From sequence record ON210138.1: a stretch of 64,000 bases of DNA. One strand, 5' to 3'. The DNA is from Escherichia phage EC106. The notes under the pieces were generated by a model, which saw only the letters and a list, made by a program, of their open reading frames with translations, was not told the origin of the DNA and searched no databases. The translations under genes were made by a program, and so were the position numbers. Below, in pieces: positions 47,455 through 50,153 of this stretch (position 1 is its first letter; each line of letters begins with the position of its first letter).

Positions 47455-47460
47455 ATTAAA

Positions 47461-47601
47461 TTATCTTTGTAGATAAGCTACCCAGACTTGCTTAAGGTCT
47501 GTAGCGATGTGCCTTTTTGGGTTTAAATCTAGAATTTACCCTTTCACCCTTTGTGGTCGCATACTCACAGGTAAGCTTAATAACTTATCTACAAAGATAA
47601 T
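47461..47601. repeat. perfect 17 bp inverted repeat (TTATCTTTGTAGATAAG / CTTATCTACAAAGATAA) flanking a 107 bp non-coding segment
   Basis: Arms at 47461-47477 and 47585-47601 are exact reverse complements; interior has the hairpin cagac...gtctg and no ORF. Confidence 0.6.
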
Positions 47602-47603
47602 TA

Positions 47604-47737
47604 CCAGACCGTTGTTTATCATCTTAAGTGCTACCATTACACCAACTCGACATCTGCCGAGTGAAGGAATCGAACCTTCGCCTTTTCTTTACCGGAGAAA
47701 TAGATTGTTTAAGTTTTGCTGTAAACGGTCTTCTGTA
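47604..47737 (-). ncRNA. candidate Y-RNA-like / tRNA-mimic ncRNA (terminal stem enclosing T-arm-like and D-arm-like segments)
   Basis: Flanking complementarity ACCAGACCGTTG (47604) with AACGGTCTTCTG (47725); interior on minus strand has intact T-arm GAAGG-TTCGATT-CCTTC, a 5 bp hairpin, and D-arm-like GTTGGTGTAATGGTAGCAC, but no acceptor stem could be paired. Confidence 0.35.
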
Positions 47738-47910
47738 AATTTGTTGAGCCAGACCAAGTTTTAAATTTTTCAAAATTAAATTGGCTTGAAATATCATACG
47801 TTCTTGCTGAATTTGGTCTTCTGCTCCTTTAAAGAATACTCGTAAGAACTCTTTAAGGGAGGGGCTAAATAGCCCTCTCAAAACATCATTTTGAAATACT
47901 TATTATAATT

Positions 47911-47987
47911 TGGCGGCTACGATGAGACTTGAACTCACATCATCTCCCGTGACAGGGGAGTATTTTCTCCAGTTAAACTACATAGCC
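47911..47987 (-). tRNA. tRNA-Asp (GUC)
   Basis: Perfect stem ctccc/gggag, loop CTGTCAC, T arm gtgag-TTCAAGT-ctcat. Confidence 0.75.
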
Positions 47988-47992
47988 TTTAT

Positions 47993-48080
47993 TGGTGTGC
48001 CGTGTAGGAGTCGAACCTACCGAGTCTCAATGACAAGGGATTTACAGTCCCCACCGCTACCATCTACGGGATAACGACAC
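47993..48080 (-). tRNA. tRNA-Tyr (GUA), long variable arm
   Basis: Acceptor gtgtcgt/acggcac, loop CTGTAAA, T arm gtagg-TTCGACT-cctac, 88 nt. Confidence 0.7.
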
Positions 48081-48099
48081 ATTTTAATTTGGCGGTTAG

Positions 48100-48176
48100 T
48101 CAGGGATTCGAACCCTGTGCCATTCGCTTAACAGGCGACCGCACATACCTTATGTGCTTCCTAACCTTAATACATT
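48100..48176 (-). tRNA. tRNA-Asn (GUU)
   Basis: D arm gcac-ATAAGGTAT-gtgc, loop CTGTTAA, T arm caggg-TTCGAAT-ccctg. Confidence 0.75.
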
Positions 48177-48242
48177 GCCAGACCGTGTTTTTCTTTTATC
48201 CGCAAAAAGTAGTTTGTTGCTGAATACGGCCTTCTGCAAAAT

Positions 48243-48319
48243 TGGAGGCGGGTGCAGGAGTCGAACCTGCCGATACCATGCTAATGAGACATGTGAGACG
48301 CCCTTTCTCTATACCCGCA
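48243..48319 (-). tRNA. tRNA with CAU anticodon (second copy; Met, fMet or Ile2-type)
   Basis: D stem gaga/tctc, stem catgt/gcatg, loop CTCATTA, T arm gcagg-TTCGACT-cctgc. Confidence 0.6.
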
Positions 48320-48410
48320 ATTCTTAATGACCAGACCAAATCTCTTCTTTGTCCGATTTACCTTCAGATGAATAAGATTAAGTTTGCTGTAATTGGTCTT
48401 CTGTCAAAAC

Positions 48411-48488
48411 TGGCGTTCCAGAAGGGATTTGAACCCTCAGATATCCACTTTGAAAGAGTGGTGACTTTACCATTTTGTCTACTGGAAC
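48411..48488 (-). tRNA. tRNA-Glu (UUC)
   Basis: Perfect acceptor gttccag/ctggaac, perfect stem ccact/agtgg, loop CTTTCAA. Confidence 0.75.
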
Positions 48489-48495
48489 ATTAATT

Positions 48496-48571
48496 TGGTC
48501 TCTGTTGGAGGACTTGAACCTCCGGCCTTACCGCCCCAAACGGAACGCTCTACCAAGCTGAGCTAAACAGA
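48496..48571 (-). tRNA. tRNA-Pro (UGG)
   Basis: Classic D arm GCTCAGCTTGGTAGAGC, loop TTTGGGG, T arm ggagg-TTCAAGT-cctcc. Confidence 0.65.
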
Positions 48572-48737
48572 GATAAACTTTTCAAACTCTATGTAACCAC
48601 TTTAACATTATTTTTTAGTGGTTGTCAAGAACTTTTTTAAAATATTTTTCAGTATCTTAGAAAAGCTCTCATTTCGTTTCTATGTAGAACATATTAAAGG
48701 GTATCAAACACATTGTCAATACCCTTTTTAAAACTTT

Positions 48738-50153
48738 TTACCAGATGTAACGGTCAATCATTACTGCTTTGAGCATTACGCTGATTGGGTCAAACTTCTC
48801 ACCACCAAGCAGAGCTTTTAAAGTGGCTGGAGAGAACCCTGATACCATTGCTACACCATTATCCTTAACAGATACTTCGCAAGTACCATTACGGTTTGCT
48901 AAGTACCAGAATACCAGTTGTGGCATTTCGTATCCAGCTTTTTTGTACTTACTCTGAATTGCTTCAAAGTTTGTACGACCATTTGCACCGTCAACCTGAT
49001 TGAACTCCATATCAGAGAAGATAATAAGCTTACTTGGCATATCTTTCTGAGTCAAGTTGTTTCTCTTACCTATCTCAAGAATACGGTCAAAAGCTGCTTG
49101 TAAGTTAGTTGAACCATATTCAACATGACGCATTACCTGACGATGACGGTTTCGTAAATCACCACTCAGTTCGATGAAGTGAGGGTTTGTTGAATAAACC
49201 ATCAACTCATTCTTAAAGCAACCTGTATTGCGTTCTGCTACATACAAGGCAAGTGATACACCAATATCCAGAGCAGTAATGGAGCCAAAATTCACCCAAG
49301 ACATTGAGCTTGAAACATCAGTCATACACAAGATGTTTTCACCTTCTGCCATCCAGTTTGGTAGTGCTTTCCACTGCTCATTGGCAACATCTGCATTACC
49401 ATGCTTGATAGACTTAATCACATCGTATGGGTAAACAGCACCAGCGTTAATCTTAGTCTCACCTTTTGATAAGGACTCGATGTAAGCTTTGTAACGTTCC
49501 CCATCTTTACGGTTAAACAGTTTTTGGTAACGTGCAGCAGCAAGAGAAGGAATCTTACTGTAGTCAATCTTACCAAACTCATTAGCAGAGATTTTTTGCT
49601 CAACTGTATCAGATAGTGCAGACAACAGTGTGCGGTACTCTTTCTCACTCAAGTTAGCAAACTTGCAGAAACGTTTTACAAACTGCTTATGACGTGGTTT
49701 GACTCGTGGTAACCACTTAGCCGCCAAACCTGCTGTTGCAGGGTCTAGTAATGCTGCTTCTAAATGTTTGAAGGCATCTGTCTCGAAACGAGTACCCACG
49801 AAGATTTTGAAGTCATCAAAACGACCAAGTTCTGCAATCTTATCCATAATGCGAAGAACCTGTGTAGGCTCTAAAACTTTATCTTCAATTGCTTGAAGCA
49901 AAACAGTCCTGAAGGCTTTACGCTCACCCATACCTTCTCGTACATCTCGCATATGCAGTAAAATACGAACTGCAACATCAACATCCTCACGCAAAGCTTT
50001 GTAGAACAGGTCTGGTAAGATTTCTACATTGCTACGGCTTGAACCAGCAGCTTTGTAAAAGTCTACAAGAGCAGACATTGATGAAGTATGGTTTACAGCA
50101 CCATTTTCAGTTCGACCTGCATGAAGGTGCGCATGTTTAAATAATTCGCTCAT
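48738..50153 (-). CDS. vWA-domain protein with helical N-terminal domain; architecture could be Ro60/Rsr-like (TROVE plus vWA) or DUF2828-type
   Basis: 471 aa; MIDAS motif DVSSSM about residue 280 and downstream LIIFSDMEF define a C-terminal vWA fold; N-terminal ~270 aa is helical and motif-poor; directly flanks the tRNA array on the same strand. Confidence 0.6.
   Translation of the reverse strand: MSELFKHAHLHAGRTENGAVNHTSSMSALVDFYKAAGSSRSNVEILPDLFYKALREDVDVAVRILLHMRDVREGMGERKAFRTVLLQAIEDKVLEPTQVLRIMDKIAELGRFDDFKIFVGTRFETDAFKHLEAALLDPATAGLAAKWLPRVKPRHKQFVKRFCKFANLSEKEYRTLLSALSDTVEQKISANEFGKIDYSKIPSLAAARYQKLFNRKDGERYKAYIESLSKGETKINAGAVYPYDVIKSIKHGNADVANEQWKALPNWMAEGENILCMTDVSSSMSWVNFGSITALDIGVSLALYVAERNTGCFKNELMVYSTNPHFIELSGDLRNRHRQVMRHVEYGSTNLQAAFDRILEIGKRNNLTQKDMPSKLIIFSDMEFNQVDGANGRTNFEAIQSKYKKAGYEMPQLVFWYLANRNGTCEVSVKDNGVAMVSGFSPATLKALLGGEKFDPISVMLKAVMIDRYIW

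What the first reader, a model, noticed from the sequence alone, without database searches (positions are those of the whole stretch)
47455..50153. Possible Ro60/Rsr-like protein next to a tRNA array that contains a tRNA-mimic structured element (candidate phage Rsr/Y-RNA module)
The 471 aa protein at 48738-50153 has a clear C-terminal vWA domain (MIDAS DVSSSM, then LIIFSDMEF) behind a ~270 aa helical N-terminal domain. That architecture fits Ro60/Rsr (TROVE plus vWA), and bacterial Rsr genes are known to sit beside Y-RNA genes whose effector module mimics tRNA. About 1 kb away on the same strand, 47604-47737 has flanking complementarity enclosing a tRNA-like T-arm (GAAGGTTCGATTCCTTC) and D-arm-like GTTGGTGTAATGGTAGCAC, yet I could not pair an acceptor stem. 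The alternative reading is a DUF2828-type vWA protein of unknown function beside a decayed tRNA.
Basis: partly seen in the sequence, partly recalled or inferred. Interest (0 to 1): 0.85.

Follow-up and report, generated by a model that had tools for sequence, protein, structure and literature searches.

The report
Phage Ro60-like protein with Y-RNA genes
A Felix O1-type phage encodes a divergent relative of the Ro60 ring protein and, hidden in the spacers of the tRNA gene array just downstream, four small structured RNAs that share one stem motif, one of them a circularly permuted tRNA mimic like bacterial YrlA; similar RNAs lie within a few kb of this protein's gene, on the same strand, in most of the unrelated phage lineages sampled.

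Summary

**tRNA-like element.** 47601-47738 (minus) does have an acceptor stem. It is closed by a loop and sits between the T and D arms, the permuted order that defines YrlA.

**More elements.** Three shorter RNAs (47746-47826, 48175-48239, 48328-48406) share its terminal module:
- a 4-bp stem;
- an ANA/G internal loop;
- a stem starting AG:CU;
- an invariant UNCAGCAA.

**Support.** 27 of 32 pairs show changes on both sides that keep the pair. Models built from these RNAs find YrlA-type RNAs near the homologous gene in eight further phage lineages (at least 45 bits): Klebsiella, Mycobacterium, Enterococcus, Bacillus, Sinorhizobium, Cronobacter and Ralstonia phages, plus an uncultured relative.

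**Limits.** Rfam's YrlA model does not hit the window element. RNA-protein binding, expression and function are all inferred.

**Verdict.** A new variant of the known Ro60/Y-RNA system.

The parts
48738..50153 (-). Gene for a 471-aa Ro60-fold protein: N-terminal helical (HEAT-like) domain plus C-terminal vWA domain with an intact MIDAS. Pfam DUF2828 + DUF7788. Ortholog of Bas63 gp130.
47601..47738 (-). E2: 138-nt YrlA-type RNA. Terminal stem module (P1 UUAC/GUAA; loop AGA vs G; P2 AGACCGUU/AACGGUCU), then UACAGCAA, enclosing a circularly permuted tRNA cloverleaf.
   Evidence: Sequence. The MFE fold gives this architecture. CM R1/R2. Covariation. Alignment with the S. Typhimurium YrlA domain.
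47684..47700 (-). E2 V/anticodon-arm mimic: UUUCU-CCGGUAA-AGAAA (5-bp stem, 7-nt loop).
   Evidence: The Rfam tRNA model aligns it as the anticodon arm. Five relatives have CU-NNN-AA loops. All 4 pairs show compensatory changes (helix 3).
47663..47679 (-). E2 T arm: GAAGG-UUCGAUU-CCUUC.
   Evidence: 100% of cells paired and 4 of 5 pairs compensatory (helix 4).
47645..47662 (-). E2 closed acceptor stem: ACUCGGC-AGAU-GUCGAGU (7 bp; G1:C72, A at the position of nt 73).
   Evidence: All 7 pairs compensatory and 97.9% of cells paired (helix 5). The sequence is entirely different in SUSP2, Sf14, Moogle and L005, with pairing kept.
47628..47642 (-). E2 D arm: GUGU-AAUGGUA-GCAC, preceded by U8-G9.
   Evidence: helix 6.
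47746..47826 (-). E1: 81-nt short Y-like RNA (P1 GAGC/GCUC; AGA vs G; P2 AGACCAA/UUGGUCU; AUUCAGCAA; variable hairpins).
   Evidence: R2 36 bits.
48175..48239 (-). E3: 65-nt short Y-like RNA (P1 UUGC/GCAA; P2 AGGCCGU/ACGGUCU with a G.U pair). It nearly fills the spacer between tRNA-Met and tRNA-Asn.
   Evidence: R1 46 bits, E 2e-7; it was not in the R1 training set.
48328..48406 (-). E4: 79-nt short Y-like RNA (P1 UGAC/GUCA; P2 AGACCAA/UUGGUCU). It nearly fills the spacer between tRNA-Glu and tRNA-Met.
   Evidence: R1 41.6 bits, E 2e-6; it was not in the R1 training set.
47455..47603 (-). E5 (candidate): 149-nt hairpin with a ~24-bp terminal stem. It contains a miniature of the module, CUAC-AGAC-CUUAAGCAA-GUCU-GG-GUAG.
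   Evidence: Fold z = -7.2. Conserved in Moogle, SUSP2, Sf14 and L004, with compensatory changes in the mini hairpin. Membership in the system is inferred.
48599..48719 (-). Two sigma-70-like promoter matches (TTGACA-17-TAATAT; TTGACA-18-TAAAGT with TG) between the protein gene and the first tRNA.
   Evidence: These are consensus matches only, and the scan shows no enrichment over shuffles.
43280..48572 (-). Array of 25 tRNA genes in which E1-E5 are embedded. This is context: the likely co-transcription and processing unit.
   Evidence: ARAGORN. Rfam.

Best explanation
The locus is a phage version of the Ro60/Y-RNA ribonucleoprotein system.

**Shown.**
- The 471-aa DUF2828/DUF7788 protein has the Ro60 fold (helical ring domain plus a MIDAS-bearing vWA domain).
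- The tRNA operon immediately downstream carries four small structured RNA genes, possibly five. They share a conserved module: a 4-bp stem, an asymmetric internal loop (5'-ANA / 3'-G), a stem beginning AG:CU, and then an invariant UNCAGCAA.
- One of them, E2, carries a complete circularly permuted tRNA (anticodon-like hairpin, T arm, closed acceptor stem, D arm), which is the YrlA architecture.
- YrlA-type relatives of E2 lie within about 3 kb of the homologous gene, on the same strand, in eight further phage lineages.

**Inferred.**
- The RNAs are co-transcribed with the tRNAs. They are released when RNase P and the 3'-end trimming enzymes process the flanking tRNAs, because E3 and E4 fill their spacers to within 3-8 nt.
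- The shared module is the docking site for the Ro-like ring. Each RNA's variable part then acts as an adaptor or gate. The tRNA mimic would present a tRNA-shaped surface to tRNA-binding host enzymes or nucleases, and the short RNAs would offer other hairpins.
- By analogy with Rsr-Y RNA-PNPase in D. radiodurans and Salmonella, and with phiLo Ro60-Yrl-PNPase, the particle would redirect or blunt host RNA decay or RNA-damaging defences during infection.

The one experimental anchor is that the 98%-identical Bas63 gp130 counteracts the Ppl defence.

For: **RNA structure.**
- MFE folds of all four elements independently give the same terminal module, and give a cloverleaf for E2.
- On 26 sequences, 91.7% of cells pair against 61.4% in shuffles and about 40% in slid controls.
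- 27 of 32 pairs have changes on both sides; the covariation score is 0.437 against 0.117 (0 of 500 shuffles reach it).
- P1 differs between paralogs: UGAC/GUCA, GAGC/GCUC, UUAC/GUAA, UUGC/GCAA.
- P2 covaries: AGACC/GGUCU, AGACU/AGUCU, AGUGUC/GACACU, AGUAUC/GAUACU.
- G.U pairs that work only on the minus strand fix the transcribed strand (E3).

**Association with the gene.** CM hits on the gene's strand, within about 3 kb of the gene (bits from R2):

| Phage | Bits |
|---|---|
| Enterococcus TJE2 | 98, 80 |
| Klebsiella FBKp34 | 84, 52 |
| Bacillus MrDarsey | 82 |
| Sinorhizobium phiM7 | 75, 45 |
| Mycobacterium Rumpelstiltskin | 70 |
| Cronobacter LPCS28 | 65, 46 |
| Ralstonia RSP15 | 64 |

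The first-round model R1, trained only on E2 and four orthologs, had already found these at 28-62 bits. Tandem short modules sit directly upstream of the gene in Listeria P100/cka18 and Aeromonas LAh_6. Candidate modules lie beside the gene in Campylobacter F372 and Staphylococcus phages.

**Link to YrlA.** Rfam RF02553 scores the Enterococcus and Klebsiella members at 36-47 bits, E 1.7e-7 to 2.8e-4. The alignment with the crystallised S. Typhimurium YrlA domain shows shared YUAC, T loop, closed acceptor stem, U-purine linker and D loop.

**Literature.**
- Bas63 gp130 is described as Ro60-like and as an anti-Ppl counter (10.1101/2024.10.10.617714).
- In Listeria phage CKA15 the homolog, which HHpred assigns to Rsr, lies within 2 kb of the three most transcribed non-coding regions of the genome (PMC12282133).
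- The definition of YrlA comes from PMC4201824.
Against: - There is no direct evidence here that the RNAs are expressed, stable or bound by the protein.
- Rfam's YrlA model gives no hit on the window element even at E<=10 in a 221-nt search.
- The canonical Rsr-binding motif GNCGAAN0-1G is absent.
- Folding z-scores of single elements are modest, -1.2 to -1.8.
- The covariation alignment was fitted to the model, which inflates pairing. CM E-values are rough by the tool's own caveat.
- gp130 alone, on a plasmid or inserted in T7, restores plaquing on Ppl. The phage RNAs are therefore not needed for that activity.
- No element was found near the gene in Vibrio phage XZ1 apart from a doubtful one overlapping the start codon. 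Listeria and Staphylococcus phages show only short modules, at marginal E-values in Listeria (0.002-0.06) and by the simple descriptor scan only in Staphylococcus.
- I sampled about 15 of 709 phage records, and not at random.
Confidence: 0.72

Rival explanations
1. The elements are cis-acting processing or spacer signals of the tRNA operon, for example RNase E, RNase III or RNase P guides. They would have nothing to do with the neighbouring protein, which would act alone as a protein-only anti-defence factor.
For: All elements sit in tRNA spacers and nearly fill them. gp130 works without them in T7. The long E5 stem resembles an RNase III substrate.
Against: The same module follows the gene where no tRNA is adjacent: Mycobacterium phage Rumpelstiltskin and Aeromonas LAh_6. 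In Listeria P100/cka18 the three modules sit behind their own consensus promoter, directly upstream of the gene. A pure processing signal would not need to conserve a whole permuted tRNA with T/D-loop tertiary nucleotides.
Confidence: 0.1
2. E2 is a decayed or rearranged tRNA pseudogene, and E1, E3 and E4 are chance or relic repeats.
For: ARAGORN does not call it. The Rfam tRNA model gives only 22 bits, below the gathering score of 29. Public records leave it unannotated or place spurious ORFs over it.
Against: Every helix keeps pairing through changes on both sides across phages whose proteins are only about 30-55% identical. The permuted order is conserved from Enterobacteria to Firmicutes and Actinobacteria phages. 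The motif count is 4 against 0 expected.
Confidence: 0.03
3. The modules are cis-regulatory protein-binding sites through which the Ro-like protein controls its own mRNA or the operon transcript, rather than free-standing Y RNAs.
For: In Listeria, Campylobacter, Aeromonas and Enterococcus phages the modules lie in the leader directly upstream of the gene. In Vibrio XZ1 a candidate overlaps the start codon.
Against: In the window and all its Ounavirinae relatives the elements lie at least 330 nt downstream of the stop codon, beyond promoter-like sites and two tRNAs. In Klebsiella, Mycobacterium and Cronobacter phages they are also downstream. The tRNA-mimic domain has no obvious role in autoregulation. 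This rival still implies RNA-protein binding, so it overlaps the main explanation.
Confidence: 0.1
4. The terminal complementarities are DNA-level inverted repeats of a small mobile element (MITE-like, or a homing-endonuclease target) that has spread within tRNA arrays.
For: There are four copies with similar ends and variable interiors. tRNA arrays of these phages are known landing sites for homing endonuclease genes, and an endonuclease-like ORF sits at 46117-46460.
Against: The outer 4 bp differ between copies within one genome but are conserved between orthologous copies in different phages. G.U pairs exist on one strand only. All copies are on the transcribed strand. The copies are syntenic (same spacer) across genera, not polymorphic insertions.
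Confidence: 0.03

Closest known systems
Bacterial Rsr (Ro60) with YrlA/YrlB RNAs (S. Typhimurium, M. smegmatis; Chen et al. 2014, PMC4201824; Wang et al. 2018, bioRxiv 10.1101/312249)
   Same: - A ring-plus-vWA Ro60-fold protein with several small RNA genes beside it.
- One RNA (YrlA/E2) is a circularly permuted tRNA mimic: 5'/3' stem, YUAY, V hairpin, T arm, loop-closed acceptor stem, U-purine linker, D arm.
- A shorter partner RNA (YrlB / E1, E3, E4) shares the protein-binding part.
- E2 in the window has a 7-bp acceptor stem, like M. smegmatis YrlA.
   Different: - The protein belongs to Pfam DUF2828/DUF7788, with no TROVE hit.
- The 5' strand lacks GNCGAAN0-1G. It carries C-ANA-AG...CU-G-G plus UNCAGCAA instead.
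- Rfam RF02553 does not score the window RNA.
- The RNAs are embedded in a 25-tRNA operon instead of an rsr-rtcBA repair operon.
- There are four to five RNAs rather than two.
- The V hairpin is a well-formed anticodon-arm mimic.
Bas63 gp130 (Escherichia phage JohannRWettstein; PhageMaP preprint 10.1101/2024.10.10.617714)
   Same: The same protein (98% identity, same synteny). It was reported as structurally similar to Ro60 and as a counter of the Ppl defence that can be transferred to T7.
   Different: The preprint only guessed that 'some tRNA genes ... are possibly Y RNAs'. The RNAs found here are not the annotated tRNAs. They lie in the spacers, partly under the spurious CDSs bas63_0137 and bas63_0138.
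Thermus phage phiLo phiRo60 with Yrl1/Yrl2 (PMC12135203; PDB 9KOP, 9L5Y)
   Different: phiRo60 is a TROVE-domain protein. Its Yrls were picked by a CGAA motif in an internal bulge and lie upstream of the gene. The parts of that paper I read mention neither a tRNA-like domain nor a tRNA array.
D. radiodurans Rsr-Yrn1-PNPase (RYPER) and metazoan Ro60-Y RNA
   Same: The general logic is shared: a conserved bulged stem formed by the RNA's ends docks on the ring, and a second RNA module tethers an effector.
   Different: The conserved helix (GGUCCGA/UUGACC type) is not present here. No effector is known for the phage system.
Mycobacteriophage cluster L 'Ro-like RNA binding protein' (e.g. Rumpelstiltskin gp54)
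   Same: A homolog of the window protein (33% identity over 98% of its length). It is also DUF2828+DUF7788 with no TROVE hit. A YrlA-type RNA with UACAGCAA lies 100 nt downstream.
   Different: There is no tRNA array next to it. Its stem is a continuous GGACUCC/GGAGUCC helix without the ANA/G loop in the matched region. I could not establish whether this RNA was among the mycobacteriophage YrlAs listed in 2014, because that supplement is not held.

Membership tests
Ro60/Rsr protein family (TROVE + vWA) | TROVE domain detectable by sequence profile (Pfam PF05731) | tested here: not met
   hmmscan at E<=1 shows only DUF7788 (1.8e-43), DUF2828 (1.7e-29) and weak VWA_2. The same holds for five homologs, including the mycobacteriophage 'Ro-like' protein.
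Ro60/Rsr protein family (TROVE + vWA) | Helical-repeat ring domain closed by a vWA domain, superposable on solved Ro60 structures | tested here: met
Ro60/Rsr protein family (TROVE + vWA) | MIDAS motif (DxSxS ... T ... D) in the vWA domain | tested here: met
   D279, S281, S283, T349 and D381 are invariant in 32 homologs. The best PDB profile alignment places DVSGSM on Ro60's DVSASM (E 0.44, not significant by itself).
Ro60/Rsr protein family (TROVE + vWA) | Binds Y RNAs on the outer surface and misfolded RNA ends in the central hole | not testable with these tools
   Needs RIP, EMSA or a structure.
YrlA RNA (Rfam RF02553; Chen et al. 2014) | Scores at or above the Rfam gathering threshold (69 bits) | tested here: not met
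   No YrlA hit on 47560-47780 at E<=10, nor on 42000-51000 at E<=1. Homologous elements in Enterococcus and Klebsiella phages reach 36-47 bits, which is significant (E 1.7e-7 to 2.8e-4) but below the threshold.
YrlA RNA (Rfam RF02553; Chen et al. 2014) | Encoded next to a Ro60 ortholog | tested here: met
   1.0 kb downstream of the Ro60-fold gene on the same strand. The association recurs in eight further lineages at 45 bits or more.
YrlA RNA (Rfam RF02553; Chen et al. 2014) | Arm order stem / YUAY / (V) / T arm / loop-closed acceptor stem / D arm / stem, with tRNA-type T and D loops | tested here: met
   UUAC at 47721-47724; T loop UUCGAUU; D loop AAUGGUA; U8. Helices 3-6 are 84-100% paired, with 17 of 20 pairs showing compensatory changes.
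YrlA RNA (Rfam RF02553; Chen et al. 2014) | GNCGAAN0-1G motif near the 5' end (presumed Rsr contact) | tested here: not met
   The 5' strand reads UUACAGAAGACC (E1 and E3: GCAGAAG). It resembles the motif (CAGAAG against CGAAG) but does not match it.
YrlA RNA (Rfam RF02553; Chen et al. 2014) | Substrate of tRNA enzymes (TruB, DusA; RNase P and CCA addition in M. smegmatis) | not testable with these tools
   Only the prerequisites are visible: a 7-bp acceptor stem with G1:C72 and a T loop of sequence UUCGA.
Pfam DUF2828 / DUF7788 | Scores above the curated thresholds of both models | tested here: met
   DUF7788 148.8 bits (cut-off 27.1); DUF2828 103.4 bits (cut-off 29). PHROG 850 'RNA-binding protein', E 2e-183.
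Canonical tRNA gene | Continuous cloverleaf with an open acceptor stem, detected by ARAGORN or by Rfam RF00005 at or above 29 bits | tested here: not met
   ARAGORN does not call it. RF00005 gives 22 bits over model positions 7-64 only. The arms are in permuted order.

The most novel reading that the evidence does not exclude
The E2-type RNAs would be complete, circularly permuted tRNAs that the Ro-like ring displays as decoys or sensors for host tRNA-targeting defence nucleases. The supporting features are an anticodon-arm mimic with a CU-NNN-AA loop and, in the window, a 7-bp G1:C72/A73 acceptor stem that RNase P could open, as it does in M. smegmatis YrlA. The short paralogs would retarget the same ring to other partners. 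The DUF2828 clade, present in over 700 phage genomes, would then be a widespread RNA-guided counter-defence particle that protects the phage's own tRNA supply. Its RNA-recognition code (ANA/G loop plus UNCAGCAA) would be distinct from that of all cellular Ro60s.
Probability: 0.15. Interest if true: 0.85.

Novelty: new variant of a known kind. Interest (0 to 1): 0.62.

Why it matters
Ro60 and its Y RNAs are conserved from bacteria to humans, yet what the tRNA-like Y RNAs do is still unknown. This work points to three things.

- **A large, unrecognised branch.** The DUF2828/DUF7788 proteins are found in 709 phage records here, including Felix O1-like, Listeria P100-like, Campylobacter, Staphylococcus, Enterococcus and Mycobacterium cluster L phages, and KVP40-like Vibrio phages. 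In most lineages sampled, RNAs sharing a distinct conserved motif lie beside the gene.
- **A testable guess.** Two recent papers (on Bas63 and on Listeria CKA15) suggested that Y RNAs might exist near this gene. This work names exact coordinates, a binding-site hypothesis and mutable nucleotides.
- **A tractable system.** Bas63 gp130 already has a phenotype (it counters Ppl) in E. coli. That offers a direct way to ask what a Ro60-Y RNA particle does, and whether phage tRNA arrays come with their own RNA surveillance or decoy machinery.

It also corrects annotation, since spurious ORFs are called over these RNAs in public records.

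Tried and rejected
- **Rfam, whole region.** cmscan over 42000-51000 at E<=1 found only tRNAs and noise.
- **Rfam, element alone.** Repeating it on the element at E<=10 still gave no Y_RNA or YrlA hit. The link to YrlA therefore had to be made through homologs.
- **Sequence searches against the PDB.** The single sequence found nothing. The family profile found only a non-significant hit to the Ro60 vWA domain, E 0.44. 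NCBIfam gave nothing.
- **First helix model.** I first paired CAG with CUG and bulged AAG. I dropped this because the G varies (A or U in L005) while the alternative register stays paired in all copies: a 3-nt ANA loop opposite G, then AG:CU (where pair 7:208 is broken in 8 sequences, and 76).
- **Permissive descriptor scan.** My first Python scan was far too noisy (339 hits on 1,981 shuffled anchors). A stricter version still has a 6% false-positive rate per anchor. I use it only as an illustration.
It folds well (z = -3.0) and contains GAAGACCGU, but neither CM hits it. I do not count it.
- **Weak tmRNA hits.** The tmRNA and tmRNA_permuted hits at 46884-47278 (15-27 bits against a gathering score of 47) were not pursued.
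- **Supplementary tables of Chen et al. 2014.** These list the phage YrlAs but are not held. Two Wolin-lab reviews are also not held.
- **Positive control.** I could not obtain a genuine TROVE/Rsr locus to test my models on.

Full report
**Context.** The window is a Felix O1-like phage. 3.7 kb around the finding is 96.9% identical to Salmonella phage SP3, and 302 phage records match. All 25 tRNA genes (43280-48572), the 471-aa ORF (48738-50153) and a small DUF5681 ORF (50236-50607) are on the minus strand. The protein gene therefore lies directly upstream of the tRNA array.

**The protein.**
- Pfam assigns it to DUF7788 (residues 275-455, E 1.8e-43) and DUF2828 (E 1.7e-29), with a weak VWA_2 hit and no TROVE hit at E<=1.
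- PHROG 850 and RefSeq call it 'RNA-binding protein'.
- Sequence searches of the PDB are uninformative. The one exception is that the family profile's best, non-significant hit (E 0.44) is the MIDAS region of Xenopus Ro60.
- An AlphaFold model built on 32 homologs (pLDDT 85, pTM 0.86; helical to about residue 265, then alpha/beta) settles the question.
- Foldseek's 12 best PDB hits are all Ro60/Rsr/TROVE chains aligned over the whole protein (E 6e-7 to 1.5e-5). The next hit, at 4e-3, covers only the vWA domain.
- The MIDAS residues are invariant in the family.

This is not new for this protein. It is 98% identical to Bas63 gp130. A 2024 preprint described gp130 as structurally similar to Ro60 and as a counter of the Ppl defence system. 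It was active even when expressed alone from a plasmid or from T7. Mycobacteriophage homologs (33% identity) are already annotated 'Ro-like RNA binding protein'. The family occurs in 709 phage records.

**The tRNA-like element (E2, 47601-47738, minus strand).** The order along the RNA is:
1. terminal stem, 5' strand;
2. UUAC-AGCAA;
3. a 5-bp/7-nt-loop hairpin, which the Rfam tRNA model aligns as an anticodon arm;
4. a short variable stretch;
5. T arm;
6. closed acceptor stem;
7. U-G linker;
8. D arm;
9. linker, then terminal stem, 3' strand.

This is a complete tRNA cloverleaf, circularly permuted and opened between the D and anticodon arms. It matches the architecture that Chen et al. (2014) and Wang et al. 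(2018) define for YrlA. The MFE fold reproduces it without constraints. An alignment with the crystallised S. Typhimurium YrlA domain shows the shared YUAC, T loop, closed acceptor stem, U-purine linker and D loop.

**Three more RNAs.** Reading the minus strand shows the same ends on three shorter elements:
- E1, 47746-47826;
- E3, 48175-48239;
- E4, 48328-48406.

The 20-nt motif CAGAAGRCCNNNTNCAGCAA occurs exactly four times in the 64 kb, with 0.00 expected. The shared module is:
- P1, 4 bp, different in each paralog;
- an internal loop, 5'-ANA-3' opposite a single G;
- P2, 7-8 bp, starting A:U, G:C and then free to covary;
- the invariant U-N-CAGCAA.

MFE folding returns this module for all four. 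E3 and E4 fill their tRNA spacers to within 3-8 nt. Maturation of the flanking tRNAs would therefore release them; this step is inferred. A fifth candidate, E5 (47455-47603), is a 149-nt hairpin (z = -7.2). It contains a miniature CUAC-AGAC-CUUAAGCAA-GUCU-GG-GUAG version of the module that covaries in relatives.

**Comparative evidence.**
- The same four elements sit in the same spacers in Moogle, SUSP2, Sf14 and Bas63.
- Variants occur in more distant Ounavirinae-like contigs. There P2 changes compensatorily: AGACU/AGUCU, AGUGUC/GACACU, AGUAUC/GAUACU. The acceptor and T stems of E2 are rewritten with pairing kept.
- A covariance model (R1) built from five E2 orthologs found E3 and E4, which were not in its training set, at 46 and 42 bits.
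- R1 also found full-length matches next to the homologous gene in unrelated phages. These strengthened after one iteration (R2). The R2 scores below are; the first-round R1 results are.

| Phage | R2 bits |
|---|---|
| Enterococcus TJE2 | 98, 80 |
| Klebsiella FBKp34 | 84, 52 |
| Bacillus MrDarsey (inside its tRNA array) | 82 |
| Sinorhizobium phiM7 | 75, 45 |
| Mycobacterium Rumpelstiltskin | 70 |
| Cronobacter LPCS28 | 65, 46 |
| Ralstonia RSP15 | 64 |

- Every hit is on the gene's strand.
- On the 26-sequence alignment, 91.7% of cells pair (shuffles 61.4%, slid controls about 40%). 27 of 32 pairs have changes on both sides, and the covariation score is 0.437 against 0.117 (0 of 500 shuffles). 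The alignment is fitted to the model, which inflates these numbers somewhat, but the margin is large.
- Short modules with CAGCAA also cluster directly upstream of the gene in other phages:
  - Aeromonas LAh_6 has about nine CAGCAA-centred copies in 1 kb.
  - Listeria P100/cka18 has three in tandem behind a consensus promoter.
  - Candidate modules lie beside the gene in Campylobacter F372 and a Staphylococcus phage.
- Vibrio XZ1 was the one lineage with nothing convincing.

**Relation to YrlA.** Rfam contains YrlA (RF02553, gathering score 69). It does not hit the window element at all. It does hit the Enterococcus and Klebsiella members of the same CM family at 36-47 bits (E 1.7e-7 to 2.8e-4). 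Those matches are carried by the T arm, acceptor stem and D arm, while the stems do not fit. The canonical 5' motif GNCGAAN0-1G is replaced by C-ANA-AG. The tRNA-mimic half is therefore YrlA-like, and the presumed protein-binding half is a different solution. That fits a protein too diverged to be recognised as TROVE.

**Mechanism.**
- *Shown:* the Ro60 fold; the conserved structured RNAs; their repeated linkage to the gene.
- *Inferred, by analogy with Rsr-Y RNA-PNPase and with phiLo Ro60-Yrl-PNPase:* the shared module docks on the ring, and the variable parts act as gates or adaptors.
- *Functional data:* the only direct evidence is anti-Ppl activity of the protein alone. The RNAs are therefore not required for that activity.
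- *Supporting observation from a distant homolog:* in Listeria phage CKA15 the homolog is found in virions. The three most transcribed non-coding regions of the genome lie within 2 kb upstream, and its authors also suspected Y RNAs.

**Novelty.** These were already known:
- phage Ro60/Y-RNA pairs (2014, 2025);
- the Ro60 likeness of this protein (2024);
- the suspicion that Y RNAs are nearby (2024, 2025).

I did not find these in the literature I could search:
- the actual RNAs, which lie in the spacers and are not the annotated tRNAs;
- their shared ANA/G + AG:CU + UNCAGCAA module;
- the multiplicity of paralogs;
- the anticodon-arm mimic;
- the breadth of the association across DUF2828-bearing phages.

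I rate it a new variant of a known kind. The main caveats are the lack of expression or binding data, rough CM E-values, and non-random sampling of about 15 lineages.

Noticed in passing
window 47455-47603 (minus strand): A 149-nt hairpin with a ~24-bp near-perfect terminal stem (fold z = -7.2). It contains a miniature of the Y-like module, CUAC-AGAC-CUUAAGCAA-GUCU-GG-GUAG. It is conserved, with compensatory changes, in Moogle, SUSP2, Sf14 and L004. It could be a fifth RNA of the system or an RNase III processing site.
   Followed up: partly
window 47507-47764 (+) and 47624-47881 (-); L014 16749-17023: 85-aa ORFs on both strands overlap E1 and E2. Public records annotate such ORFs as hypothetical proteins (for example bas63_0137 and bas63_0138). 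These are probably spurious calls over non-coding RNA genes.
   Followed up: partly
window 45371-45465 (minus strand): A 95-nt tRNA spacer that folds well (z = -3.0) and contains GAAGACCGU, reminiscent of the module's 5' strand. Neither CM scores it. It may be a degenerate copy.
   Followed up: partly
window 46117-46638 (minus strand): A 173-aa ORF whose 5' part overlaps tRNA-Ser (46482-46568). The real protein probably starts at MKKGSVGE... (about 110 aa; PHROG 5018, unknown function). It looks like a small endonuclease-like gene inserted in the tRNA array, and it is absent at this spot in Bas63.
   Followed up: no
window 50236-50607 (minus strand): A DUF5681 protein (123 aa, PHROG 4114) lies immediately upstream of the Ro-like gene. 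This pairing is conserved in all Ounavirinae-like loci examined (L004-L006). It may be a functional partner.
   Followed up: no
L010 (Aeromonas phage LAh_6) 4986-5970: About nine CAGCAA-centred short elements lie in tandem in the 1 kb upstream of the DUF2828 gene; the stem module was checked for several of them. They are partly covered by the annotated CDS LAh6_127. An RNA ligase 2 gene lies 3.7 kb downstream.
   Followed up: partly
L020 (Listeria phage cka18) 3060-3390; L012 (P100) 5610-5890: A consensus TTGACA/TATCAT promoter is followed by three tandem short modules (AGGAAUC, AGAGAGC and AGGAAGC stems, each with ACAGCAA), ending about 110 nt before the gene start. A 2025 paper on the sister phage CKA15 reports very high transcription of non-coding regions within 2 kb upstream and finds the protein in virions. 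I could not match its coordinates to these modules.
   Followed up: partly
L007 (Klebsiella phage FBKp34) 8003-8135: A 114-nt feature annotated 'tRNA-Asp' overlaps an R2 hit (52 bits) that has a T arm and the UUUACAGCA motif. It looks like a tRNA / Y-like chimera or a mis-annotation.
   Followed up: no
L008 (Vibrio phage XZ1) 5956-6017: The only module-like sequence, CAAAGACAUUUUACAGCAA..., overlaps the start codon of the DUF2828 gene. That would suit translational autoregulation, but it scores only 15 bits.
   Followed up: no
E2-type RNAs: window 47684-47700; L002, L003, L005, L009, L019: The hairpin before the T arm has a 7-nt loop reading CU-NNN-AA, the anticodon-loop signature. The 'anticodons' differ: GGU, UAU, GCU, GUU, GCA. 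The window copy has CC-GGU-AA.
   Followed up: partly
window 46884-47278 (minus strand): Weak, sub-threshold Rfam hits to tmRNA (15 bits) and tmRNA_permuted (27 bits; gathering score 47) in the 337-nt gap between tRNA-Arg and tRNA-Ile. The gap also holds the best promoter-like match of the region (11/12, 47205-47177).
   Followed up: no
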